Shown here one piece after another: positions 1,453-25,618 of a stretch of 25,618 nucleotides of DNA. This stretch comes from an uncultured Methanosarcinales archaeon. Lineage in GTDB: Archaea > Nanobdellota > Nanobdellia > Woesearchaeales > GW2011-AR4. The translations under genes and the position numbers were made by a program. Position 1 is the stretch's first letter; each line of letters starts with the position of its first letter. The stretch is taken from positions 1 to 25,618 of the forward strand of contig CAZFPU010000004.1 of the NCBI GenBank assembly GCA_964521145.1, read 5' to 3'. The notes under the pieces are model-generated. The model was not told the DNA's origin, searched no databases, and was given only the letters and a program-made list of their open reading frames with translations.

Positions 1453-2220
1453 ATGTGTGGCTCAATGTATGCACCAAGTATTGATGGATCGAATATAACC
1501 TTGATTGGGGTCGATTTTAGGGACAGAGAAGAAGGGCTAGGAAAATTGGAGCAATTATTGCATAAACTAAAACCAACCCTCATTGTCCATCCCTTCAGCG
1601 AAGAGGATCATCAGGAATTGACTCGAGCCCTGGATGAAACAGGATCAGAACTGCTTCAAAAAGGAGTTGATCCTGGTCAAATAGAAGATGCAGTAGAAAA
1701 GCTATACGATCTGATAATCCCATTCCCCGTTGCTGTAGGAAATGAATATGCCCAGGAGAATGGCATAAAGATCGCCTATGGCCAAAGGCCCTATCCATTC
1801 CTGATGATTGAGAGCAGGATCGATCATGCTAAGAGGCTTGCAACTGATCTTGTAGAGAGCGCTCAAAAGGGCAAACTGGGTAACAAAGCACTGTGGCAAA
1901 TCAATAATGCCTTGCACCAATACTATGGTCCAATTCCTTCAGAAGAAAAATTGGAGAGCCAGTGGGAGTATCTTAACGCCAAAGAAGGGTTCTGGAAGCA
2001 ATCAATGCATAATATCATCGACCAGCAAATCCTAAACCCCGGGCCAAATCATCCAAACAAGCTCATGAAACGGATAATAAAAGAGCTTGCGCAGGAAGAG
2101 GGCATCGTCGCAATTCCGATGAGAATGCAAAACATCACAACAAGCGTCGGATCGATCTATAACAAGACGAAAGGATATGGGGTGCAAAGAATCCCGCTGC
2201 TATACTCAAGCATAGGCTAG
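1453..2220 (+). CDS. hypothetical protein (weak N-terminal resemblance to TraB/PrgY/GumN fold)
   Basis: 255 aa ORF with GGAGG RBS near 1440, divergent from the ACT gene. ITLIGVDFRD...KLEQLLHKLKPTLIVHP resembles the TraB-family start. Confidence 0.65.
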   Translation: MCGSMYAPSIDGSNITLIGVDFRDREEGLGKLEQLLHKLKPTLIVHPFSEEDHQELTRALDETGSELLQKGVDPGQIEDAVEKLYDLIIPFPVAVGNEYAQENGIKIAYGQRPYPFLMIESRIDHAKRLATDLVESAQKGKLGNKALWQINNALHQYYGPIPSEEKLESQWEYLNAKEGFWKQSMHNIIDQQILNPGPNHPNKLMKRIIKELAQEEGIVAIPMRMQNITTSVGSIYNKTKGYGVQRIPLLYSSIG

Positions 2221-2900
2221 CGGTATTTTTTTAGAACATCATTGACTGCATTCTCAAGCCGCGCATCAGAAGCCTCCACAATTACCTGATCGTAAGGCCC
2301 CCTAAGCACGCCGCGCTCGATAAGATGCTCCTCGATCCATTCAGGGGTTTTTTTCTTTTTCATATCGATGAACCGTTGGAATTTTTCCTGAGAATAGCCG
2401 CCTTTATGTGTCCTTCGAAGCTCTCGAATCTTGTTTAAGATAACTCTTTTCTTGCCATCGATCCATTCATGGACCTTTATGTGTTTCATATCCACAAAAA
2501 CATACAATACTTTGTGGTATTTCTTGCTAAGAGAGATCGCTTCATCTTCAAGAGAGATCCGAATGGGCTTTGAATCAAAGTCATCGGGAAGGGGATCGTC
2601 GTCATCTTCATTGTGATCTTTTTTTTGTTTTATTTCTGTTGCTTTTTTTTGTTTGTGTTCTTGCAGTTTCTTTTCATTCTCTAATTGCTCTTTTAATGAT
2701 TGGTTTGCACGCTCCTCGTTCTCTTTTCTCCTTTGCTGCTTTTTTTCCTTCTGAGTTTGCTCGATTGTTTGTTTTTTTTGCGCTTGTTCGTTTTGATATT
2801 CAGAGGAGCAAGAATCGCACATTTTTTTATCGTCCACTAAAGTATAATTAGAAAAATATTTTCTTGAAGCGCATCTTGAGCATGCGAATGTAAAAGCCAT
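2217..2900 (-). CDS. Zn-ribbon plus coiled coil plus eRF1 middle-domain/VLRF1-like domain protein
   Basis: CSRC...CDSC at the N-terminus; K/Q/E-rich coil; acidic linker; then VLYVFVD-HIKVHEW-KRVILNKI-RRTHKGGYSQEKFQRFID-helix-YDQVIVEAS, in the order of the aeRF1/VLRF1 catalytic domain. Confidence 0.7.
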   Translation of the reverse strand: MAFTFACSRCASRKYFSNYTLVDDKKMCDSCSSEYQNEQAQKKQTIEQTQKEKKQQRRKENEERANQSLKEQLENEKKLQEHKQKKATEIKQKKDHNEDDDDPLPDDFDSKPIRISLEDEAISLSKKYHKVLYVFVDMKHIKVHEWIDGKKRVILNKIRELRRTHKGGYSQEKFQRFIDMKKKKTPEWIEEHLIERGVLRGPYDQVIVEASDARLENAVNDVLKKYR

Positions 2901-2934
2901 TTTGTATTGTTTTCTGGTTTTTTATTTTTTGATT

Positions 2935-3085
2935 TAAAGGCTATTGTATTTAGGCCGGGCCAGAGATGCCCGGCTACTTATTAATCAATATCCTAGTGCA
3001 ATGGAACGCCAAAAAAGCTATTGAACGAAACACCGTGCACTAAGATAGCAACAAAATGGATTCCGCGCGCACTAAATATCCTAGT
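2935..3085. repeat. Palindromic intergenic repeat family, copy 1 (composite)
   Basis: TATTTAG (2947) is followed by the stem gccgggc/gcccggc (2954-2974) and TATCCTAGTGCAA (2989-3001). Inverted motif copies TGCACTAAGATA (3036-3047) and GCACTAAATATC (3069-3080). Confidence 0.75.
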
Positions 3086-3120: not shown

Positions 3121-5295
3121 CTAAGATAAACTACTCGTCAAGATGCCCGCTGCAACATAGTTGAAGATCAGCATCACGATCAATGATATCATGCAATAGA
3201 GTATCGTGCTCTTGATTAAATTCTTTCCTAACAAATATCGCTCATTGAGCTTGTCTGACCCGTTTTCAATGCCATTGACCAGGATGGTAAGTATATACGT
3301 GATCTGCACCACATAGATCCCAACGATGATCTGGAAGTAAAAAGTAGGGATGCCATCACCAAACAAACCGACCAAGCCTACCTGCTGCCCGGCCGCTGAT
3401 GCGCCTTCGGTCACCACCTGCAGTTGGCTTCCTAGTTTCCCTAAGATAGTCGTTACCATTGAGGTTATGCCAATCACAATGCCCGCGATCGCAGGGGTCA
3501 AGAATTTTATCTGCGAATTCATAGAGGATATAATGTCGGCCATCAGATCCCTAAGGCGCTCATTGACAGAATGGATCTCTTTTATGTATCGGCTTACATT
3601 GGTTAAGGCCTGGGCTGCGATATAAGGCCCTTTCTTCACGCTCTGAACCAATACCTTCATCGAGCTCTCGATCAGGCTAGAGGGATAATGGACGAGTGCC
3701 CCATGTTCGGGATCAAAGATGGCTTTTTGTACACTCAGCCCCAGTCTTCTGATGTTCGTATTTACCAGGCGAAAGAAGCTGCCAGAGATCGTCCCTTCCA
3801 TAACATTAGCAACCTTCTCAAATGCTATCTCGGCAGGAAGCCCATCTCCTAATCTATTCCCTAGTTGAAATAGCGCGCCTGCGAACTCCATCTCAAGTTT
3901 TTTTCCACGTTCACGGATCTCGATTATGTTTTTTGAGCGCAGCGAAAAATAGAGTCCAAATCCAAGCCCAAGGCCCAGGGTGACTCCAAGGCTTAATATT
4001 CCCGCGCCAAGACCAAAGGGGCCTATCTCCTCTTGAGTTGTTTGGCTGATCTTATAGCCAAGCAGGCAGAATTTACCTTTACACATGACATCCTTATCAT
4101 CGATGCCAAAGGGGATATCGGGAAATCCTATCTTATGCAAGATGAGCGGGCTAAAACCGATCAATAGAAGCACAAACCCAATGATGAGGCAGAAATACAA
4201 TGGGTTCATCGCAACTTCTGACTTCCCTATCTTGAAAAGGATGTTCTTGTACTTCTTGAGCTCTGGATTTTCTTCTGAGATATCGGTCTGCCCATAGCCC
4301 GTTGGCCTTCGAGAGAGCACATCTCTTCCAATAAAATAGACTGAAAGCGGCAAAGCGACATTATAGAGCGCGGCAATGTGATACCACTGCACGCCATCCA
4401 TGAAGCTGACGACAAGTGGGAGGATCACCAGCCCTAAAATGGGCAAGATGACCCCAAGCATGTGAAGCATGGTGATCGGGCTCTGCAAATTATGCGCGTA
4501 GTGCAACATCTTCTCATAGGTCTCGCTTAAGATCACATCAAGCGCCTTATCAAGAGTGGAAAGTCTTCGCTCTTCACTACCTTCATACAATGAGCCCTCG
4601 ACCAGGTGAAAGCTTTCAATGAACTCAAAGTTCCATTTTTTCCATGTCTCAAGATACATATCAACGCTTTCTTTGAGGCTGTCATACTTGTTGGTCTCGA
4701 CATCCCAAAGCACTTTTTTAAGATCCATGCTTAAAGGAGGCGCAAGATGATCAGCTGCAAATTCAAGAGCGTTCTCGAGATTCGATGTATGGCGCATATA
4801 GGTGACCACATAAAAGATGCATAATACCATCTGGTTGCTTGCCCTCATGCGCCAATTGTTTGCAAAGGATGCTGGAATGCCCCCCAATGGCTTAATGAGT
4901 ATAAGTCCTGATAGGAAACAGAATACAATGAGAAACGTGGATTGGGTTAGTAGATACGTAAGCAAAGACCCGAAGACTATTACTACCAGCGGAGCAAGAT
5001 ATGATAAAGAAACAACTCCCGTTGGAGTCACATTAAGATGGGCGATGTTGATGTGCTCAATGAGCTCCGCTTCCTTTTTCTTTCCAGGCCTAATGTTTAG
5101 TATCTTCTCGCTTAGGTTGCATATCTTCTCATAGAAGGTCATATGCAAAGGCATTAGCTCTTGCCTAAACTGCTGGTATTCTAGCGAAGAAGAAGCCTTT
5201 GGCTTGTAATTGACATCTCCTAATTCCTTCTCAATCTGCTTGCGATAATACGCGACAAGATCGCGTATCTGCGCACGTTCATCGACTGGTGGCAT
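3121..5295 (-). CDS. Type IV filament/T2SS-F inner membrane platform protein (TadB/TadC- or ArlJ-like, two T2SS-F domains)
   Basis: 724 aa polytopic membrane protein with two T2SS-F-like blocks (QMVLCIFYVVTYMRHTSNLENALEFAA; EFAGALFQLGNRLGDGLPAEIAFEKVA). GAGGT RBS. Downstream of and co-oriented with a VirB11-like ATPase. Confidence 0.85.
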   Translation of the reverse strand: MPPVDERAQIRDLVAYYRKQIEKELGDVNYKPKASSSLEYQQFRQELMPLHMTFYEKICNLSEKILNIRPGKKKEAELIEHINIAHLNVTPTGVVSLSYLAPLVVIVFGSLLTYLLTQSTFLIVFCFLSGLILIKPLGGIPASFANNWRMRASNQMVLCIFYVVTYMRHTSNLENALEFAADHLAPPLSMDLKKVLWDVETNKYDSLKESVDMYLETWKKWNFEFIESFHLVEGSLYEGSEERRLSTLDKALDVILSETYEKMLHYAHNLQSPITMLHMLGVILPILGLVILPLVVSFMDGVQWYHIAALYNVALPLSVYFIGRDVLSRRPTGYGQTDISEENPELKKYKNILFKIGKSEVAMNPLYFCLIIGFVLLLIGFSPLILHKIGFPDIPFGIDDKDVMCKGKFCLLGYKISQTTQEEIGPFGLGAGILSLGVTLGLGLGFGLYFSLRSKNIIEIRERGKKLEMEFAGALFQLGNRLGDGLPAEIAFEKVANVMEGTISGSFFRLVNTNIRRLGLSVQKAIFDPEHGALVHYPSSLIESSMKVLVQSVKKGPYIAAQALTNVSRYIKEIHSVNERLRDLMADIISSMNSQIKFLTPAIAGIVIGITSMVTTILGKLGSQLQVVTEGASAAGQQVGLVGLFGDGIPTFYFQIIVGIYVVQITYILTILVNGIENGSDKLNERYLLGKNLIKSTILYCMISLIVMLIFNYVAAGILTSSLS

Positions 5296-5389
5296 TGACC
5301 TCTTTTTTTAATGATTTGAAATGATTGTGAAAGTTAATAATTTTAGTGAAACAGTATCTTGATTTTTTGGATCTTTGTTTTTTGATTTT

Positions 5390-5490
5390 GAAAAGCTGCC
5401 ATCTACGCCGCACCAACTGCTAGGCAACTCACTTCGTTCGTTGCGGCGTGCGTGCGGCTTCTTATAATGCCCATATCTTAGTGCAATGGT
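5390..5490. repeat. Palindromic intergenic repeat family, copy 2
   Basis: GAAAAGC...ATCTAC, an inverted repeat acgccgca/tgcggcgt (5405-5412/5442-5449) and ATATCTTAGTGCAA (5473-5486). Its reverse complement shares TTGCACTAAGATAT-N6-TATAAGAAGCCGCAC with 11617-11651. Confidence 0.8.
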
Positions 5491-5505
5491 ATTTTTTAAA
5501 TTGGG

Positions 5506-6435
5506 TTATGATTTTTTCTTACGACTTTTTGAATGGCTCCTAGTTTTTGATGGATTAGATTGTTTTTGACCCATAGGCATTGCGTCTCGTATGCGCGCAC
5601 GAATGCCATGGGCTACATGCAGTATTTCCTCGAATTGAATGCCTTTTTTGGGATCGCTTCGATCTCTCCATAACACAACGAATGTATCCACGCTGTTGAG
5701 CACTTCTCGCAGTTGCGCTAGGCTTTCTTCGTGGGATATCCAATCTATATTTTCTCTCTGCAAGGTATCGAGCAGATTATTAACTCGATGCAGGGTTCGA
5801 TGGAATGCTTCTACCAACAGCTCTTCTCTTCTTAAATCAATCACGTACAGATGATGCTGGTAATCATAGAAATTAGGAATTTCATGCAAGAGATTGGAAA
5901 TCTGCTTATATGCAATGCTAAGGCGATTCCACTCCTGCTCACCAAGCGCATGCGAGGTTTTAGCGACATGAAGGATATGCTCAAAATCTCTTCGCACGAT
6001 GTAGAGATCTTCGCGGACAGCATGCGAGATCCCTTCAAGGGATATCTTGTGCATTTGCCGAATAGCCACGTCCTGATAGCGCGATACCAATCGTGCCATG
6101 AAAAGAGCAAACAAGAACAGACCACCGAAGCTTTCCAGCGCCGCAAAGGCACGCGAGAGTCCCTGTGGCACGATATCCCCATAACCTGTGTTCGTCGCTG
6201 TAATGACGCTATAATACAAGCTGTTTAAGAGCCTACCCTCCAAAGAAAAACTATCGATCGAAGTGGGCCCATTGCCGGGGCTGTAACTTAACAGGGTGTA
6301 TATCAATGCAAATAAGCATGCGTTTGCCAGCCATAATACAAAAATGGTTTTATAGGAGAATTTGTCGATCCAGTCCATGAGATCGCGCTTTTTGCGCAGG
6401 GGTAGCCAGCTGCCGTTGTCATTTGTTGCAGTCAT
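5506..6435 (-). CDS. Potassium channel family protein (2TM pore plus helical C-terminal cytoplasmic domain)
   Basis: TM1 (TIFVLWLANACLFALIYTLL), pore helix and filter (SLYYSVITATNTGYGDIVP), TM2 (RAFAALESFGGLFLFALFMARLV). The start may be at the second Met (MDWIDKF). Confidence 0.88.
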   Translation of the reverse strand: MTATNDNGSWLPLRKKRDLMDWIDKFSYKTIFVLWLANACLFALIYTLLSYSPGNGPTSIDSFSLEGRLLNSLYYSVITATNTGYGDIVPQGLSRAFAALESFGGLFLFALFMARLVSRYQDVAIRQMHKISLEGISHAVREDLYIVRRDFEHILHVAKTSHALGEQEWNRLSIAYKQISNLLHEIPNFYDYQHHLYVIDLRREELLVEAFHRTLHRVNNLLDTLQRENIDWISHEESLAQLREVLNSVDTFVVLWRDRSDPKKGIQFEEILHVAHGIRARIRDAMPMGQKQSNPSKTRSHSKSRKKKS

Positions 6436-6645
6436 TGTTTTGTTGTTTCAGGAAATGTTTTTAATTCCTCATATTTGTTCGCAATTATGCTGATACGACC
6501 GACTCGGCATTTATTTCCTATTGGTTGGATCGTTACTTGCATTGTTTGAGGAAATCGGGACAAAAGACCAATGATGTCTTTTATGCAGTCGCGGAGATTT
6601 TCCGTTTGACATTTTTTATTAAAAGATGAGTCGAAAATTTTGCTC

Positions 6646-8970
6646 CTACTTCATCCTGCTTCTTCCTTCCACGCTAAAGGTCTGCTTCTTGACAGTCCTT
6701 CTGAGCCATTCGTTCCAATCAAAAAATATGCGCTTGCTATCGAGCGAGCCCACTTCATCCTTTACTGACTCAGATAGCTTGTGGAATTGGTCGTTTGCCT
6801 GCACCACGAATTCCGCTTCAAGAAGATCAAGGTTATTTGTTTTATGCGCAACCTCCACCAATGTTTCCTTCAGTTTGGCCCGAAGGGTGATATTATCCCA
6901 TACGGCATCCCAGCTGCCAGACCATTCCTTGACGTTGCCTGCTATTGATTTTAGGATGTCACTCTCGCCATTGATAAGTTCATCGGTTGGTTCGATTGAA
7001 TCCGTTTCTGTCTTGTATTTCATCAGGTCGACAAAGCCATTTTCTAGGAGAGGATCATCCTCCCAGAGCTTTCGAACCTCGGTTATTTGCGTCACTCTTC
7101 TCCACCTATGTAATCCATCGGCGCTTCGAACAGGATTTGCGACAATGATGATGTCAGTTGCCTTGAAGCTGGTTCTTGGGACCCCTAAGTCATTGACGAC
7201 ACGATCAAAGACACCATACGGGCTATCACCGTGGATCGTGCCTGCGACCACATTGGCAAGTGCCCCGACTCTCATCGCCTCATACAATGCCAAAGCTTCC
7301 TTGCTTCTGATCTCTCCAACAATCAATGCGCTATCGCCCAAACGAAGCGTGGTTCGAATCCCTTCATCGGCAGGAACTTCAGAGCTTGATTTGCTCAAAG
7401 CAGATGAGACTTTCATCGGCTGGATGTTGTATCCTAATTTTCGAAGCTCATTGGTTGGCAATTCCAAGGTATCCTCAATAGTAATAACCCTATATTTTCG
7501 CATCAGTTCGACAAGCAATGCGCTGAGTACTGAAGTCTTTCCAGCGCTTCTTGTTCCCGCAACGAGCATGGTTCTTGCACCATCGACGATGAAGCTCATG
7601 AGGCCCGCGGCCAGCGGAGTTATCATCTGCGAATGGATAAATAAGGGTAAGGTCCATGGCTTATCCCGATGCCTTCTTAGAGCAAACGCAAGCCCATAGG
7701 GGTTCAGTGGAGGCCCAACGGCGGCAACTCTCGCGTTCGCGCCATCAAGGATCAGTTCGGTATCTAAGATAGGATTTGCTTCATCGAGTGGTCTTCCAGA
7801 AACCAATCTTAATTTCGTCGCCCATGAATCCGCTTCCGCTCTTGTTGGGATTATGTTTGTCCTGCAGTCCGCATATTCGGAATGCACAAGGAATGCGGGA
7901 ACGTCGCCCATCTGGTTGTTGATAGAGATGTCCTGTACTTTTTCATCCTGCAACAGTACCTCGATTAGTCCAAAGCCAACAGTGTATCTAACCAGGATCG
8001 TTGTCAACTGCTCAAGCTCCGCTTCCTTGAGTTTTATTCCCCTATACGAAGCAAGTTCCTCTATGAGATCTTCCCCTACATTATAGAATACCTGTCTCAT
8101 GCGCTCAGGCTCGACAAACTCGCTTTTCTTTGGCTCATGCTCTGCCATGATATTTCTTGCAGTGTCTAGGATCTCATACTTTTCCTCGGTGAGCTTGAAT
8201 TCTGGGGGAACGACATGATAGAGATATTGGACCGTGTCAGGAAGCTCAAAAATAGTGACATCGACATCCTTTCCAACCGTATATCGCTCAAGCTCCCGTG
8301 CATCATGGGGAAAAGAGGCCATGAGCTTGGTGAACATGAAATCAGGGCGAACCATCGCCGAGAATAATCTTCGATAGAGATCCCTGCTTCCTACCTTATA
8401 TCCTGCTATGTCTTGCTTGACTATGTTTATGATCCTGGTCTTGTCAAGCAATTGTACCATATATTGCAGGATGCTCAGGTATTTTTGCAGGCATTCGCGA
8501 AATTGAGCATCAGAACTTCTATCTAGAATGATTCGCTCATCTCTCTCGAGACGGATAAGCTCCACATACGCGCCGATAGGGTCTGAGCGAAGCAGGTTTG
8601 AGATGATATTCTGGATGGTCGCATACCAAGTGTTTGCCCATCTGCTGCATTTCATGTCCGCAAGCAGCGCACCATAGTTGAATGAGTCCCTTCTTTTGGT
8701 GAGCTGCTCATAGACCATGGCAATCTCTCGAAGATAGGTTGTCTGCGCATAATCATACTCGTAGTTCCTCTTCTGCAGGAAAACTATCTTGGATGCGTCC
8801 TTGACTTCCAGGATCATGTCGCATACCTTTGACATCACCACCGCATCATCCTCTAATGAAGGCACTTTGGGATACTGCTCGAGGTTTACCGATAGGATGA
8901 CATCATCGCCTTCCCGAAGTACTTCGAAGGAGAATGGCTTGTCGCTTGCTTTTCTGTCAAATAGTGCCAT
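6646..8970 (-). CDS. VirB11/TadA/ArlI-family type II/IV secretion ATPase with long N-terminal extension
   Basis: Walker A (AGTRSAGKT), Asp box (ITIEDTLEL), Walker B (LIVGEIRS), His-box remnant (AGTIHGDS), and the conserved GFGLIEVLLQDEKVQDISIN and SGRPLDEANPILD segments. Confidence 0.93.
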   Translation of the reverse strand: MALFDRKASDKPFSFEVLREGDDVILSVNLEQYPKVPSLEDDAVVMSKVCDMILEVKDASKIVFLQKRNYEYDYAQTTYLREIAMVYEQLTKRRDSFNYGALLADMKCSRWANTWYATIQNIISNLLRSDPIGAYVELIRLERDERIILDRSSDAQFRECLQKYLSILQYMVQLLDKTRIINIVKQDIAGYKVGSRDLYRRLFSAMVRPDFMFTKLMASFPHDARELERYTVGKDVDVTIFELPDTVQYLYHVVPPEFKLTEEKYEILDTARNIMAEHEPKKSEFVEPERMRQVFYNVGEDLIEELASYRGIKLKEAELEQLTTILVRYTVGFGLIEVLLQDEKVQDISINNQMGDVPAFLVHSEYADCRTNIIPTRAEADSWATKLRLVSGRPLDEANPILDTELILDGANARVAAVGPPLNPYGLAFALRRHRDKPWTLPLFIHSQMITPLAAGLMSFIVDGARTMLVAGTRSAGKTSVLSALLVELMRKYRVITIEDTLELPTNELRKLGYNIQPMKVSSALSKSSSEVPADEGIRTTLRLGDSALIVGEIRSKEALALYEAMRVGALANVVAGTIHGDSPYGVFDRVVNDLGVPRTSFKATDIIIVANPVRSADGLHRWRRVTQITEVRKLWEDDPLLENGFVDLMKYKTETDSIEPTDELINGESDILKSIAGNVKEWSGSWDAVWDNITLRAKLKETLVEVAHKTNNLDLLEAEFVVQANDQFHKLSESVKDEVGSLDSKRIFFDWNEWLRRTVKKQTFSVEGRSRMK

Positions 8971-21699: not shown

Positions 21700-23340
21700 A
21701 TGATCCCTCAAGACACCTCACTTGAGTATTTGGTAACTCTGGAAAGCATCGGTCTATTTCTGAATCCATTTGACATTACCACCGCATATTTCTCGACACT
21801 TAGCAATAAGGAGATAAGTGGAGTGCTCGATAGGGCGACAAGAAGAAAGCCGCTTACCAAATTCAGAAAGATGTTATCCTCGAATGCTTTGAGGGATCAA
21901 ATACGGAAAAAAGTCCCTAAAGCCTATCACCAGAACCTAGACAAAATGAGCACTTTGAAATTCCACGACGCGAGCAATCCTGCAGAAACGCTGCTTTTAG
22001 TGACTTTCTTTGATGCACTAATTTCTCGAAGCTTTATCAACCCCTATTCAGAGCTCAAAATCGAGGAAGGAAAGAGCGAATTGATTGCGAACAACAAGCG
22101 CCGCATTCACACGAAGCGGCAAGGACAGATAGGAGAGATACTTTACGAGGCGCTGCATCCATTCCATCGAAAGACCTATGCACTCTTTGAGCCTTATCAT
22201 TCTCTTTCATTTCCCCAGTTTGAAAACCTATTCGAAGAGGGGCTTGCTTCCAAAATAAAAGATGAAGGCAAGGGAGCTGCATTTGGGCTTTATTTGCTTG
22301 CCCATTCTGATTTGCGAATCAATCTCCTTTCCTTGTATTTCACGCAAAGAAATCCGAGTAATGTTCTGGAATGGATGAAAACGACCGGAAGGGATTTGAC
22401 GCTACGATTCGACATAGCGTATCCAAAAGGAGACAATATTCCCGAGGAATCCACAAGAAATTACCTTAAGGGGATCATCGACAAAGGAAATCGAATATTG
22501 CAGCTCGATCCCACGCTTTCTGCCGACTCCTCGTATCAGCCATCCGAATATTCCAATATTGGCCAGCTCATCGAGCGCTTGACCACAGTGATTTTTAGTT
22601 CTGAGCGGCGCATGCAAGCCAAGGAAAAAGCGTATGTAGGGCAAGCGCAAGAACTGAAAACGGAGAATGCATCACTGCAGCGGAGATTGGAAGAGGAGCG
22701 AGAGAAAGTGCGTGCCCATGCAGGAGCGGCCATACAGATGACAAAGACTATCGACGATCTTGAAATGCGCGAGCCTATTTACAGTCCTAACGAGCGATAT
22801 GATCAATTGAAGCGCTCTTATGATGAGTTGGAATCAGGCAACCAAGAATTGACTGCAGAAAAATCAAGGCTTTCAGGAAAGGTGCAAAGGCTTGCGCATG
22901 ACCTGGAGGCTGCCAAATCAAGGAATAAAGAACGCCAAGAGTTAATCGAGGTAAAAAACACTGAGATAAAAAGACTGGAAGGAGAGTATGGCGTCCTGCA
23001 ACAAAAAATAGAATCACTTACGACAATTCCAACGCTGGAAAAGATCTATGGGAAAAAATCGATTTTGTTCGTGACTGGATTTTACGATCAGATACCAAAA
23101 TACAAAAAAGAGCTTGATAAAGTATTCGGCTATGTGGAAGTGGTCGCTCCCGATGAGGTGAAGCGCCAGAACCCCCAGAATTTCGATGTCATCATGATGG
23201 CAGGGGGACTGACAAGGCATCCGGATAGATTTTTGATGGAAAGCCAAGGGAATAAAGTCATTGTGTATCCAAATCAGCCAAATCAAGTATTGCAGTTCTT
23301 GTATGATAGGAATGCGCCGAAGCAGAAGAATGGGAAGTAG
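21700..23340 (+). CDS. Large coiled-coil protein with small C-terminal alpha/beta domain (DUF2325-like)
   Basis: Long heptad region (about residues 300-445), then SILFVTG...FDVIMMAGGLTRH...KVIVY. TATA-like AAAACTCTTAAAAG near 21662. Confidence 0.75.
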   Translation: MIPQDTSLEYLVTLESIGLFLNPFDITTAYFSTLSNKEISGVLDRATRRKPLTKFRKMLSSNALRDQIRKKVPKAYHQNLDKMSTLKFHDASNPAETLLLVTFFDALISRSFINPYSELKIEEGKSELIANNKRRIHTKRQGQIGEILYEALHPFHRKTYALFEPYHSLSFPQFENLFEEGLASKIKDEGKGAAFGLYLLAHSDLRINLLSLYFTQRNPSNVLEWMKTTGRDLTLRFDIAYPKGDNIPEESTRNYLKGIIDKGNRILQLDPTLSADSSYQPSEYSNIGQLIERLTTVIFSSERRMQAKEKAYVGQAQELKTENASLQRRLEEEREKVRAHAGAAIQMTKTIDDLEMREPIYSPNERYDQLKRSYDELESGNQELTAEKSRLSGKVQRLAHDLEAAKSRNKERQELIEVKNTEIKRLEGEYGVLQQKIESLTTIPTLEKIYGKKSILFVTGFYDQIPKYKKELDKVFGYVEVVAPDEVKRQNPQNFDVIMMAGGLTRHPDRFLMESQGNKVIVYPNQPNQVLQFLYDRNAPKQKNGK

Positions 23341-25085: not shown

Positions 25086-25618
25086 ATGGCAACACAAAGC
25101 GTCGAAACTCTTGTAGCAGGCGGAAAGGCAACTGCAGCCCCCCCATTAGGTCCGGCCCTAGGACCATTAGGAGTAAATATCGGTCAGGTTGTCATGGAGA
25201 TAAACAAGAAGACCGCTGTGTTCAATGGCATGCAGGTGCCTGTCAAGGTAAAAGTCGATACTGATACCAAGGCATTCACGATCGAAGTGGGAACACCACC
25301 GGCATCATCTCTTATTCTTAAGGAAGCGGCTGTAGAAAAAGGCTCTGGCGCTCCAAATACCGACAAAGTCGCTGATATTAGAATCGAGCAGCTAATCAAG
25401 GTCGCAAAAATGAAATTTGACAATCTTCTAGGCAAGGACTTAAAGCAAAAGATCAAGGAAATTGCTGGTACCTGCCAATCAATGGGAATCCTCATCAATG
25501 GAAAGCCAGCTCCTGAAACTATAGCAGACATCAATTCCGGAAAATACGATAAAGAGATTAAGGATGAGAAGACCGAACTTACCGCTGCTGAACTAAAAGA
25601 GCTCGAAGAAGAGAAGAA
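25086..25618 (+). CDS. rpl11: 50S ribosomal protein L11 (uL11), 3'-truncated by window end (not in ORF track)
   Basis: Translated by hand: MATQSVETLVAGGKATAAPPLGPALGPLGVNIGQVV...GTPPASSLI...EIAGTCQSMGILI...SGKYD. No stop before the window end. Confidence 0.97.
   Translation, partial: MATQSVETLVAGGKATAAPPLGPALGPLGVNIGQVVMEINKKTAVFNGMQVPVKVKVDTDTKAFTIEVGTPPASSLILKEAAVEKGSGAPNTDKVADIRIEQLIKVAKMKFDNLLGKDLKQKIKEIAGTCQSMGILINGKPAPETIADINSGKYDKEIKDEKTELTAAELKELEEEK

What the first reader, a model, noticed from the sequence alone, without database searches (positions are those of the whole stretch)
2217..2900. Zn-ribbon protein carrying a minimal release-factor (eRF1/VLRF1-like) domain with a GGYSQ loop
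Seen: the C-terminal roughly 100 aa follow the order of the aeRF1 middle domain: three beta strands, a basic loop RRTHK-GGYSQ (2388-2402), a long helix EKFQRFID, a strand YDQVIVEAS and a helix. The stop-codon-recognising N domain and the C domain are absent; a Cys4 Zn ribbon (CSRC/CDSC) and a K/Q/E coiled coil sit in front instead. Known: aRF1/eRF1 use GGQ. The VLRF1 clade (Vms1/ANKZF1 and prokaryotic relatives with GGxSQ-type loops) acts on peptidyl-tRNA at stalled or split ribosomes, and Vms1/ANKZF1 carry an N-terminal Zn finger. Inference: a compact, codon-independent ribosome rescue factor or tRNA-cleaving enzyme in a DPANN archaeon, with an architecture I do not recognise as described.
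Basis: partly seen in the sequence, partly recalled or inferred. Interest (0 to 1): 0.75.

Follow-up and report, generated by a model that had tools for sequence, protein, structure and literature searches.

The report
Minimal release-factor-like protein of DPANN archaea
This small archaeal gene encodes a zinc ribbon, one very long helix and a stripped-down copy of the catalytic domain of release factor eRF1. In relatives the domain is repeatedly fused or adjacent to a ribosome-quality-control domain (NFACT-R), so it probably frees unfinished proteins from stalled large ribosomal subunits.

Summary
Window 2217-2900 (-) is a real 227-aa gene with a Cys4 zinc ribbon, a ~70-residue single helix, an acidic linker and a C-terminal ~110-aa domain carrying RRTHK-GGYSQ. 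An AlphaFold model (pLDDT 94) has the predicted strand/helix order. Its 18 best PDB matches are all eRF1, aRF1, Pelota/Dom34 or Balon. The nearest Pfam model is acVLRF1, below threshold.

The family is tiny: 55 representatives among 1.84 billion proteins, in 25 of 185,579 GTDB species. Organism labels are mainly Nanoarchaeota, Woesearchaeota and Altiarchaeota.

GG is invariant, but the "catalytic" Gln is not: Q 58%, A 31%, K 11%.

The unexpected result is a link to NFACT-R. In 12 of 48 distinct loci, spanning four sequence classes, the domain is fused to, or overlaps the gene of, an NFACT-R protein (a NEMF/RqcH C-terminal half). This includes the closest relative found in the metagenome contig scan.

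I read it as a codon-independent, Vms1-like peptidyl-tRNA release module working with an NFACT-R partner. A GGxSQ archaeal VLRF-1 family was predicted in 2019, but with an N domain and without RQC partners, so this is a new variant of a known kind. No function was tested.

The parts
2217..2900 (-). Complete gene, 227 aa plus stop: zinc ribbon, long helix, acidic linker, eRF1-M-like domain
   Evidence: ORF list and sequence. 55 representative homologues. Full-length AF2 model with mean pLDDT 93.6.
2808..2900 (-). N-terminal Cys4 zinc ribbon (residues 1-31; C7, C10, C28, C31)
   Evidence: Sequence. Four short strands with pLDDT 92-97. CxxC-x(10-25)-CxxC is present in 53 of 71 long family members. 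Weak Zn_ribbon_8 and LIM hits in 6 members each.
2610..2816 (-). K/E/Q-rich single long alpha helix (residues 29-97, roughly 100 A if straight)
   Evidence: DSSP helix 29-97 at pLDDT 97-98 in the full-length model. Whether it is monomeric or a coiled coil was not tested.
2682..2708 (-). Conserved motif inside the helix, ANQSLKEQL (residues 65-73; family pattern A[DN]xxL[KRL]xEL)
   Evidence: R64, A65, N66, L69, K70, Q72, L73 are invariant in the 3-sequence alignment. The motif is found in 54 of 71 long forms. Its function is unknown; a partner- or ribosome-contact site is an inference.
2553..2609 (-). Acidic, proline-containing flexible linker (residues 98-116, HNEDDDDPLPDDFDSKP...)
   Evidence: This is the only low-confidence stretch, with no secondary structure and block pLDDT of 77 and 59. 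It is poorly conserved.
2220..2552 (-). eRF1 middle-domain-like (RNase H fold, RF-PH type) domain, residues 117-227
   Evidence: AF2 domain model with pLDDT 94 and pTM 0.83. Foldseek against PDB: ranks 1-18 are all eRF1, aRF1, Pelota or Balon, with E down to 4.5e-4, probability 1.0 for most (0.99 for two) and TMq 0.40-0.56. The full-length model reproduces this. Pfam acVLRF1 E 0.073 for this protein, and 5.2e-4 (plus eRF1_2 at 0.019) for the family consensus.
2388..2426 (-). Loop between strand 3 and the following helix: RELRRTHKGGYSQ (residues 159-171). G167 and G168 are invariant in the family.
   Evidence: Alignment A4: G55, G56 and W76 (window G167, G168, W188) are invariant, and R159, E160, R162, T164, S170, K173, Q175 are conserved at >= 90%. 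hhalign places GG on the GG of a canonical aRF1 GGQ loop. Q171 is variable: Q 60, A 32, K 11.
2932..2938 (-). TTTAAAT, a candidate archaeal TATA box about 35 nt upstream of the ATG
   Evidence: Read directly from the sequence. This is inference only; no archaeal promoter tool is available.
2953..2975 (.). GC-rich 8-bp hairpin in the intergenic region, between the upstream membrane-protein gene and the target gene
   Evidence: Terminator-like scan. It possibly separates the two transcription units; this was not tested.

Best explanation
The gene encodes a minimal member of the archaeo-eukaryotic release factor (aeRF1) superfamily, closest to the Vms1-like (VLRF-1) type. It keeps only the RNase H-fold domain that in eRF1 and Vms1 reaches the peptidyl-transferase centre. 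In place of the stop-codon-reading N domain and the GTPase-binding C domain there is a zinc ribbon, a ~70-residue helix and a flexible acidic tether.

The most likely role (inferred) is codon-independent. After a stalled ribosome is split, the protein would bind the large subunit that still holds peptidyl-tRNA. The zinc ribbon and basic helix would act as anchor and spacer. The invariant Gly-Gly loop (RRTHK-GGYSQ) would enter the peptidyl-transferase centre and free the nascent chain, either by ester hydrolysis or by cutting the tRNA 3' end as reported for Vms1/ANKZF1.

It probably works together with a 'half-NFACT' protein made of the end of the NEMF/RqcH coiled coil plus the NFACT-R domain. 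Relatives are fused or translationally coupled to that protein.

Shown here: the fold, family conservation, phyletic range and the NFACT-R linkage. Inferred: ribosome binding, the substrate and the chemistry.
For: 1. Fold. The AF2 model (pLDDT 94) has the order beta1-beta2-beta3, loop, helix, beta4, helix. Foldseek ranks 1-18 are exclusively aeRF1-superfamily middle domains: eRF1, aRF1, Pelota and Balon, including the isolated human eRF1 M domain 2hst.

2. Sequence. 34 of 49 members weakly match Pfam acVLRF1 (best 2.7e-5) and 12 of 49 match baeRF_family10. The family consensus hits acVLRF1 at 5.2e-4 and eRF1_2 at 0.019, both over the loop and helix. hhalign aligns RTHKGGYSQEKFQRFI with the KMKAGGQSSNRFRRII of a canonical aRF1.

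3. Loop conservation. GG is invariant, followed by a small residue. K173 is conserved at >= 90% and R176 is the majority residue in the following helix. This is the pattern PMC6514570 describes for active RF-PH domains, and it reports GGxSQ for aVLRF-1 and acVLRF-1.

4. Context. 12 of 48 distinct family loci link the domain to NFACT-R. Seven are C-terminal fusions (L027, L028, L045, L049, L052, L058, L061), as are proteins P0048 and P0078. Four have an overlapping downstream gene (L005, L011, L016, L018). One has an overlapping upstream gene: L034, the closest relative found in the metagenome contig scan, at 57% identity with the same zinc ribbon. The partner matches human NEMF residues 462-647 at E 4.9e-31.

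5. Not the main terminator. A canonical aRF1 with NIKS and GGQ lies 3 kb from a family member on L005.

6. Neighbours are often translation genes: L11, S19e, L31e, Cbf5 and aminoacyl-tRNA synthetases.
Against: - No member reaches the curated threshold of any Pfam or NCBIfam release-factor model.
- HMM searches against PDB sequences find nothing.
- Foldseek scores are moderate (E about 5e-4, TM about 0.5), and Vms1 structures are not among the top 50.
- The presumed catalytic Gln is A or K in 42% of members. Either Gln is dispensable or many members are inactive.
- In the window itself no NFACT-R gene is present within 25.6 kb, nor on the syntenic locus L008.
- Ribosome binding, the substrate and catalysis were not and cannot be tested here.
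Confidence: 0.55

Rival explanations
1. The domain is a non-catalytic ribosome-binding module. It would occupy the A site or peptidyl-transferase-centre region of a vacant or obstructed large subunit, as inactive aeRF1 relatives (Dom34/Pelota, Balon, most baeRF-1 families) do. There it would recruit or position the NFACT-R partner, and that partner's conserved histidine would perform the release.
For: - Gln is lost in 42% of members, while loop length and GG are kept.
- PMC6514570 notes that aeRF1 families which have lost their flanking domains usually lack the Gln and are probably inactive.
- Balon is among the best structural matches.
- All NFACT-R partners keep the D-x-V-F-H motif. Its His aligns with the WFH histidine of CCDC25 and with the His of NEMF and RqcH, but not yeast Rqc2.
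- A preprint reports that the solo NFACT-R protein Jlp2 releases peptides through His44, which it equates with CCDC25 H41 (10.1101/2025.09.04.673968). Assigning H41 to the WFH histidine rests on my recollection of native CCDC25 numbering.
Against: - Absolute invariance of GG, and >= 90% conservation of R159, E160, R162, T164, S170 and K173 around it, is more than a mere scaffold would need.
- From my own knowledge of bacterial release factors (not checked here): the Gln side chain contributes far less to catalysis than the glycines and the backbone, so a Q-to-A change need not mean inactivity.
- Most loci, including the window, have no adjacent NFACT-R gene.
Confidence: 0.27
2. It is an RNase H-fold nucleic-acid enzyme or binding protein that acts away from the ribosome, for example on free tRNA or another RNA. 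The resemblance to eRF1 would then reflect only shared ancestry of the fold.
For: - Lower-ranked Foldseek matches include generic RNase H-like and actin-like folds such as Ppx/GppA, UvrC C-half, FtsA and Hsp70 NBD.
- NFACT-R was originally predicted to be simply an RNA-binding domain and occurs in tRNA thiolation contexts (PMC4075521).
- The basic helix and zinc ribbon would suit general RNA binding.
Against: - The classic acidic catalytic residues of RNase H nucleases are not conserved. The Asp at the end of strand 1 varies, and the invariant positions are G167, G168 and W188.
- The top 18 structural matches and the only recurring Pfam signals are release-factor families.
- The partner is homologous specifically to the ribosome-quality-control protein NEMF.
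Confidence: 0.1
3. It is the organism's ordinary stop-codon-dependent termination factor in a reduced form, replacing aRF1 in a minimal genome.
For: DPANN genomes are reduced, and the domain is of the eRF1 type.
Against: - There is no N domain and no NIKS-type codon-reading element. There is also no C domain to bind aEF1alpha/aRF3-type GTPases.
- A canonical three-domain aRF1 with NIKS and GGQ coexists with a family member on L005-L007.
- The family occurs in only 25 of 185,579 GTDB species.
Confidence: 0.02

Closest known systems
[quoted passage not shown]
   Same: - RNase H-fold RF-PH domain with a GGxSQ loop and basic residues at the start of the following helix.
- No Pelota/C domain.
- aVLRF-1 is archaeal and has a long N-terminal coiled coil.
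- acVLRF-1 has lost the stop-codon domain.
- acVLRF1 is the best Pfam match of this family.
   Different: - No member reaches the acVLRF1 threshold: the best is 24.8 bits against 27.1.
- aVLRF-1 is described as keeping the stop-codon-binding domain, which is absent here. Only a 10-residue helix precedes strand 1.
- A zinc ribbon is not mentioned for aVLRF-1.
- The paper states that prokaryotic VLRF-1 proteins occur independently of other RQC components, whereas this family is repeatedly fused or adjacent to NFACT-R.
- Gln is replaced in 42% of members.
- The paper's accession lists were not available, so identity with aVLRF-1 could not be settled.
Vms1 / ANKZF1 (eukaryotic eVLRF-1)
   Same: An eRF1-M-like domain that acts without a stop codon on 60S-peptidyl-tRNA, after or in competition with the NFACT protein Rqc2/NEMF. 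It carries an N-terminal zinc-binding module thought to anchor it on the large subunit (PMC6514570).
   Different: - Vms1 has a GxuQ loop without the double glycine, a Rei1-type C2H2 finger rather than a Cys4 ribbon, ankyrin repeats, a VTC domain and a Cdc48-binding VIM motif. None of these is present here.
- Vms1 structures were not among the top 50 Foldseek matches.
Classical aRF1 / eRF1 middle domain (Pfam PF03464 eRF1_2)
   Same: Same fold and same placement of a Gly-Gly loop between strand 3 and the helix. These are the best structural matches.
   Different: - The motif is GGxSQ/A/K rather than GGQ. When the glycines are aligned, the canonical Gln position holds an aromatic residue (F/W/Y) or, in some members, Met.
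- There are only four strands.
- The N and C domains are missing.
- The sequence match is only E 0.019 for the family consensus.
Single-domain baeRF-1 families and Balon (bacterial aeRF1 homologues)
   Same: These are precedents for aeRF1 relatives used for something other than termination. Three baeRF-1 families retain only the RNase H core. Balon ranks third in the fold search, and baeRF_family10 is matched weakly by 12 of 49 members.
   Different: Those families are bacterial, mostly lack a conserved Gly-Gly-x-x-Gln loop, and are linked to hibernation factor HPF rather than NFACT-R. This family is archaeal with an invariant GG.
NFACT proteins (NEMF/Rqc2/RqcH) and solo NFACT-R proteins (CCDC25/Jlp2); these are relatives of the partner, not of the window protein itself
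   Same: The partner or fused domain matches NEMF 462-647 (E 4.9e-31), RqcH and CCDC25, and keeps the His of the D-x-h-F-H motif.
   Different: The partner lacks the NFACT-N and HhH domains that recruit tRNA for tailing. A fusion of NFACT-R to an eRF1-like domain was not found in the literature searched.

Membership tests
aeRF1 superfamily (RNase H-fold RF-PH / eRF1 middle domain) | [quoted passage not shown] | tested here: met
   AF2 pLDDT 94 with DSSP order E-E-E-loop-H-H-E-H. Foldseek ranks 1-18 are all aeRF1-superfamily proteins.
aeRF1 superfamily (RNase H-fold RF-PH / eRF1 middle domain) | Glycine-rich loop between strand 3 and the helix, followed by conserved basic residues at the start of the helix | tested here: met
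   G167 and G168 are invariant. K173 is conserved at >= 90% and R176 is the majority residue.
aeRF1 superfamily (RNase H-fold RF-PH / eRF1 middle domain) | Significant sequence match to a curated family model (Pfam eRF1_2 or another aeRF1 model at gathering score) | tested here: not met
   eRF1_2 reaches only E 0.019 (15.7 bits against 27.1), and only for the family consensus. No PDB sequence hits.
VLRF-1 clade (aVLRF-1 / acVLRF-1) | GGxSQ catalytic-loop motif | tested here: inconclusive
   The window protein has GGYSQ. Across the family, GG plus a small residue is invariant, but Q is present in only 60 of 103, with A in 32 and K in 11.
VLRF-1 clade (aVLRF-1 / acVLRF-1) | Match to Pfam PF18859 (acVLRF1) at the gathering score | tested here: not met
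   13.7 bits for the window protein and 24.8 bits for the best member, against a cut-off of 27.1. It is nevertheless the most frequent match, in 34 of 49 members.
aVLRF-1 (archaeal VLRF-1 as described in PMC6514570) | Long N-terminal coiled-coil extension and no C-terminal Pelota domain | tested here: met
   A helix spans residues 29-97 and nothing follows the RF domain.
aVLRF-1 (archaeal VLRF-1 as described in PMC6514570) | Stop-codon-binding (eRF1 N) domain between the coiled coil and the RF-PH domain | tested here: not met
   Only a 19-residue disordered linker and one short helix lie between the long helix and strand 1. No eRF1_1 hit.
aVLRF-1 (archaeal VLRF-1 as described in PMC6514570) | Sequence identity with, or clustering among, the authors' aVLRF-1 members | not testable with these tools
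   The supplementary accession lists are not held, and no Pfam model of aVLRF-1 turned up in the scans.
Classical aRF1/eRF1 | Three-domain architecture with NIKS-type N domain, GGQ, and C domain | tested here: not met
   There are no N or C domains, and the motif is GGYSQ rather than GGQ. A true aRF1 coexists with a relative on L005.
Vms1/ANKZF1 (eVLRF-1) | GxuQ loop, Rei1-type C2H2 finger, ankyrin repeats, VIM | tested here: not met
   None of these domains is detected in the Pfam scan. The zinc module is a Cys4 ribbon.
Peptidyl-tRNA release activity (functional class) | Binding to the large subunit and release or cleavage of peptidyl-tRNA | not testable with these tools
   This needs biochemistry. 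The only support is contextual: NFACT-R fusions and operons.

The most novel reading that the evidence does not exclude
DPANN and Altiarchaeota archaea may possess a two-part, minimal ribosome-quality-control release system. One part is a single-domain Vms1-like factor (this family). The other is a 'half-NFACT' protein: an NFACT-R domain that retains the histidine reported as essential for release in yeast Jlp2. The two would act together on split large subunits. In some lineages they are one polypeptide, in others an operon, and in others (as in the window) separate genes.

This would be the first prokaryotic physical link between the Vms1-type and NEMF-type arms of RQC, which were thought to be independent outside eukaryotes. 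The Q-to-A/K variants would show which of the two domains supplies the chemistry.
Probability: 0.35. Interest if true: 0.8.

Novelty: new variant of a known kind. Interest (0 to 1): 0.66.

Why it matters
How archaea dispose of peptidyl-tRNA left on split large subunits is essentially unknown.

A Vms1-like release domain that is repeatedly fused or translationally coupled to an NFACT-R domain would give a concrete, testable candidate system. The proteins are small and could be purified and examined by structural methods.

It would also tie together two release activities that eukaryotic work treats separately: Vms1/ANKZF1, and the recently proposed NFACT-R factor Jlp2.

The natural Gln-to-Ala/Lys variants within one orthologous family are a ready-made experiment on what the GGQ-type loop actually contributes.

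Finally, it bears on the evolutionary origin of eukaryotic RQC, where prokaryotic VLRF-1 proteins were said to act alone.

Tried and rejected
- **PDB sequence searches.** Single-sequence and profile searches against PDB sequences gave only chance-level hits.
- **NCBIfam.** Only low-complexity noise from the K/E-rich helix.
- **Word-indexed homology search.** With the domain alone it found just two relatives. The exhaustive search was needed.
- **Bridge to acVLRF1.** Searching with the divergent member P0052, the best acVLRF1 match, returned only itself.
- **Exact look-up of the window protein.** Not on record in the assemblies, so the source genome, its aRF1 and any NFACT-R gene could not be examined.
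- **Supplementary lists of PMC6514570.** Not held, so identity with aVLRF-1 stays open.
- **Rfam scan.** Nothing in the whole window. The sigma-70 promoter scan is irrelevant for an archaeon.
- **Canonical terminator.** Rejected: no N or C domain, and aRF1 coexists with a relative.
- **DEDD-type RNase H nuclease.** Rejected: no conserved acidic set.
- **Chance ORF in low-complexity DNA.** Rejected by the conservation. The short plus-strand ORFs inside the gene (2431-2616, 2570-2851, 2700-2840) are by-products of the A/G-rich coding strand.
- **Conserved neighbours.** No conserved neighbour other than NFACT-R was found. L11 and a His_Phos_1 gene recur in one marine subclade only, which probably reflects shared synteny.
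Full report
**1. The observation**

The minus-strand ORF 2217-2900 (ATG start, 227 aa) is present as described. It begins with CSRC...CDSC (C7, C10, C28, C31) and continues with a K/Q/E-rich stretch and an acidic run (DDDDPLPDDFD). It ends in a domain containing RELRRTHK-GGYSQ-EKFQRF. GGYSQ is residues 167-171, which is nt 2388-2402.

A TTTAAAT box lies about 35 nt upstream of the ATG. A GC-rich hairpin (2953-2975) separates the gene from the upstream 724-aa membrane-protein gene. The 3' end overlaps the stop codon of a convergent 255-aa ORF (1453-2220).

Other genes in the window are archaeal in character: FtsZ, FKBP26-type PPIase, cytidylate kinase, Spt5, L11 and a T2SSE-family ATPase. The window holds no tRNA and no Rfam match. 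GC content is 43% for the window and 39% for the gene.

**2. A real but very small family**

Single-sequence searches of Pfam, NCBIfam and PDB gave nothing significant. The only suggestive hit was acVLRF1 (PF18859), E 0.073, over residues 162-192. The word-indexed search found two relatives at 49% identity.

An exhaustive HMMER search of 1.84 billion representative proteins, using a three-sequence profile of the C-terminal domain, found 55 representatives. Of these, 48 had E <= 1e-10, and all were short proteins of 37-308 aa.

Scans of one genome per GTDB species found the family in 25 of 185,579 species. The labels were Nanoarchaeota/Nanobdellota, Woesearchaeota, Altiarchaeota, unclassified 'archaeon', and some third-party assemblies labelled 'uncultured Methanosarcinales'. 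JGI metagenomes added 33 more loci. Each hit came from a different assembly, which is consistent with a single copy per genome; copy number was not checked directly.

The window's own genome is not in these collections. Locus L008 is syntenic with it: T2SSE ATPase, 722-aa membrane protein, family gene, 255-aa ORF, ACT-domain gene.

**3. Anatomy**

The full-length AlphaFold2 model (49-sequence alignment, mean pLDDT 93.6) shows four parts:
- a four-stranded zinc ribbon, residues 1-28;
- one uninterrupted helix, residues 29-97;
- a low-confidence acidic linker, residues 98-116;
- a compact domain, residues 117-226.

The domain modelled alone (45 sequences; pLDDT 94, pTM 0.83) has this order: helix, three strands, a 10-residue loop ending in GG, two helices, a strand, a helix.

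Among 71 long forms, 53 carry CxxC-x(10-25)-CxxC. Another 54 carry a conserved motif, A[DN]xxL[KRL]xEL, in the middle of the helix; in the window protein this is ANQSLKEQL, residues 65-73. A marine subclade replaces the ribbon with a basic MSLxKKIKSxF N-terminus. Short forms of about 105-125 aa consist of the domain alone.

**4. Fold and family relationship**

Foldseek of the domain model against the PDB returned only aeRF1-superfamily proteins at ranks 1-18. These were human, wheat and yeast eRF1 on ribosomes, archaeal aRF1, Pelota/Dom34, the bacterial hibernation factor Balon, and the isolated human eRF1 M domain (2hst). E-values went down to 4.5e-4, probability was 1.0 for most (0.99 for two), and TM-score on the query was 0.40-0.56. 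Generic RNase H/actin-like folds followed at lower probability. The independent full-length model gave the same list.

At sequence level:
- 34 of 49 members weakly match acVLRF1 (best 2.7e-5, 24.8 bits against a 27.1 cut-off), and 12 of 49 match baeRF_family10.
- The family consensus hits acVLRF1 (5.2e-4) and eRF1_2 (0.019), both over the loop and helix.
- hhalign against the M domain of a canonical aRF1 aligns RTHKGGYSQEKFQRFI with KMKAGGQSSNRFRRII.

In that alignment the glycines coincide. The canonical Gln position is aromatic in this family, and the family's Gln lies two residues later, as in the GGxSQ motif.

The domain therefore belongs to the aeRF1 superfamily by fold and loop anatomy, and is nearest to the VLRF-1 type. 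It passes no curated sequence threshold.

**5. Conservation of the loop**

In alignment A4 the invariant residues are G167, G168 and W188. R159, E160, R162, T164, S170, K173 and Q175 are conserved at >= 90%.

Across 103 distinct near-complete domains the motif is GG-[F/W/Y/M]-[S/A]-x, where x is Q in 60, A in 32 and K in 11. K-GG..Q, A-GG..A and A-GG..Q combinations all occur.

The glycines and their surroundings are under strong constraint, but the Gln is not.

From my own knowledge, not tested here: in bacterial class-I release factors, Gln-to-Ala changes reduce peptide release far less than changes to the glycines. Loss of Gln therefore does not by itself prove inactivity.

**6. The unexpected finding: linkage to NFACT-R**

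Two representatives carry a C-terminal NFACT-R_1 domain (E 2.6e-19). Looking at contigs, the short form P0070 is followed by a 195-aa NFACT-R gene whose start overlaps the family gene's end by 14 nt. This sits in an archaeal locus that also holds histone, SRP54, S19e, L31e, Cbf5 and a canonical aRF1.

Across 48 distinct family genes, 12 are linked to NFACT-R:
- seven C-terminal fusions (L027, L028, L045, L049, L052, L058, L061; GGFAQ type);
- four with an overlapping downstream NFACT-R gene (L005, GGMSK type; L011, L016 and L018, GGFSA type);
- one with an NFACT-R gene immediately upstream, with ATGA stop/start overlap (L034, GGFSQ type).

L034 is the closest relative found in the metagenome contig scan. 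It is 57% identical in the domain and has the same MxxTFxCSxC...C..C ribbon. The linkage thus appears in four sequence classes and in three different arrangements, which chance cannot explain. Many of the remaining loci have truncated flanks.

The L034 partner (260 aa) matches human NEMF residues 462-647 at E 4.9e-31, as well as Rqc2 and RqcH. The L011 partner also matches the end of the NFACT_N/middle model. These partners are therefore the C-terminal half of an NFACT protein, without the tRNA-recruiting NFACT-N/HhH part.

All partners keep a D-x-V-F-H-T motif. Its His aligns with the His of NEMF and RqcH, is absent from yeast Rqc2, and aligns with the WFH histidine of CCDC25.

A preprint (10.1101/2025.09.04.673968) reports three things: the solo NFACT-R protein Jlp2 releases peptides from ribosome-bound peptidyl-tRNA; this requires His44 (CCDC25 H41); and Rqc2 lacks this His. 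The correspondence of positions is my inference from these alignments.

No NFACT-R gene lies within the 25.6-kb window or on L008.

**7. What is already known**

Burroughs & Aravind 2019 (PMC6514570) defined the Vms1-like RF-1 clade with four families. They state that aVLRF-1 (a subset of archaea) and acVLRF-1 carry a GGxSQ motif. They describe aVLRF-1 as lacking the Pelota domain and having a long coiled coil N-terminal to a retained stop-codon-binding domain, and acVLRF-1 as having lost that domain. They also state that prokaryotic VLRF-1 proteins are standalone and occur independently of other RQC components.

The present family shares the motif, the coiled-coil-like helix and the missing C domain. 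It differs in having no N domain, in having a zinc ribbon, and in being linked to NFACT-R. The paper's accession lists were not available, so I cannot say whether this is their aVLRF-1 loosely described, a derivative of it, or a sister family.

The 2014 NFACT paper does not mention any release-factor association. Literature searches found no other description.

**8. Mechanism**

Best-supported reading, confidence about 0.55: the protein is a codon-independent release or rescue module of the Vms1 type. The ribbon and basic helix would anchor it on the large subunit, the acidic tether would give reach, and the invariant GG loop would enter the peptidyl-transferase centre. There it would free the nascent chain by hydrolysis or by 3'-end cleavage of the tRNA, in cooperation with a half-NFACT partner.

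The fold, the conservation, the phyletic range and the linkage are shown. Ribosome binding, the substrate and the chemistry are inferred.

Rivals:
- Main rival, about 0.27: the domain is a non-catalytic positioning module and the His-bearing NFACT-R partner does the chemistry.
- About 0.1: a ribosome-independent RNA role.
- About 0.02: a reduced canonical terminator. This is effectively excluded by the missing N and C domains and by coexistence with aRF1.

**9. Verdict**

The structural interpretation is supported. The functional interpretation is plausible and is now supported by context, but it is untested and the 'catalytic' Gln is not conserved.

This is a new variant of a known kind, not a categorically new system. 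The NFACT-R coupling is the part most likely to interest specialists.

Noticed in passing
window 3121-8970 (-): A T2SSE-family secretion/pilus ATPase (774 aa, 6646-8970), a two-pore-type K+ channel (5506-6435) and a 724-aa polytopic membrane protein with no Pfam match (3121-5295). The ATPase and the large membrane protein occur in the same order on the syntenic locus L008. This is possibly an archaeal type IV pilus- or archaellum-like assembly pair.
   Followed up: partly
window 1453-2220 (+) versus 2217-2900 (-): A 255-aa ORF of unknown function converges on the target gene, and the two stop codons overlap by 3-4 nt. A 255-aa gene sits in a similar position on syntenic L008, so it is probably real.
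   Followed up: partly
window 2682-2708 (-), and homologues: A short conserved motif, A[DN]xxL[KRL]xEL (here ANQSLKEQL), lies in the middle of the otherwise low-complexity long helix. It is present in 54 of 71 long family members and may be a docking site. No function is known.
   Followed up: partly
window 2953-2975: A GC-rich 8-bp hairpin lies in the 220-nt intergenic region upstream of the target gene, followed on the minus strand by a TTTAAAT box (2932-2938). This may be a terminator for the upstream gene followed by a promoter for the target gene.
   Followed up: no
L001, L012, L015, L022; window 25086-25618: Ribosomal protein L11 lies 0.2-1.3 kb downstream of the family gene in four loci, while in the window L11 is 22 kb away next to Spt5. 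This may be lineage synteny rather than functional linkage.
   Followed up: partly
L005:3788-4885 (-): A canonical aRF1 (365 aa; NIKS at residue 55, GGQ at residue 177) lies 3 kb from a short family member and its NFACT-R partner. This shows that the mini-factor coexists with the normal terminator.
   Followed up: yes
L009, L012-L014, L016, L020, L023, L024, L031 (GTDB genome contigs): Several third-party-annotated MAGs that carry the family are labelled 'uncultured Methanosarcinales archaeon'. The other informatively labelled carriers are DPANN or Altiarchaeota, so the label looks doubtful. It was not checked.
   Followed up: no
P0020 (308 aa), L009 (303 aa), L037 (330 aa): A few family members have much longer N-terminal regions. 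P0020 has a Cys-poor, apparently globular extension of about 130 aa instead of the zinc ribbon. These were not analysed.
   Followed up: no
window 21700-23340 (+): A 546-aa ORF whose only Pfam matches are to coiled-coil and leucine-zipper models (HALZ, E 2.6e-7). This probably reflects a coiled coil rather than homology.
   Followed up: no
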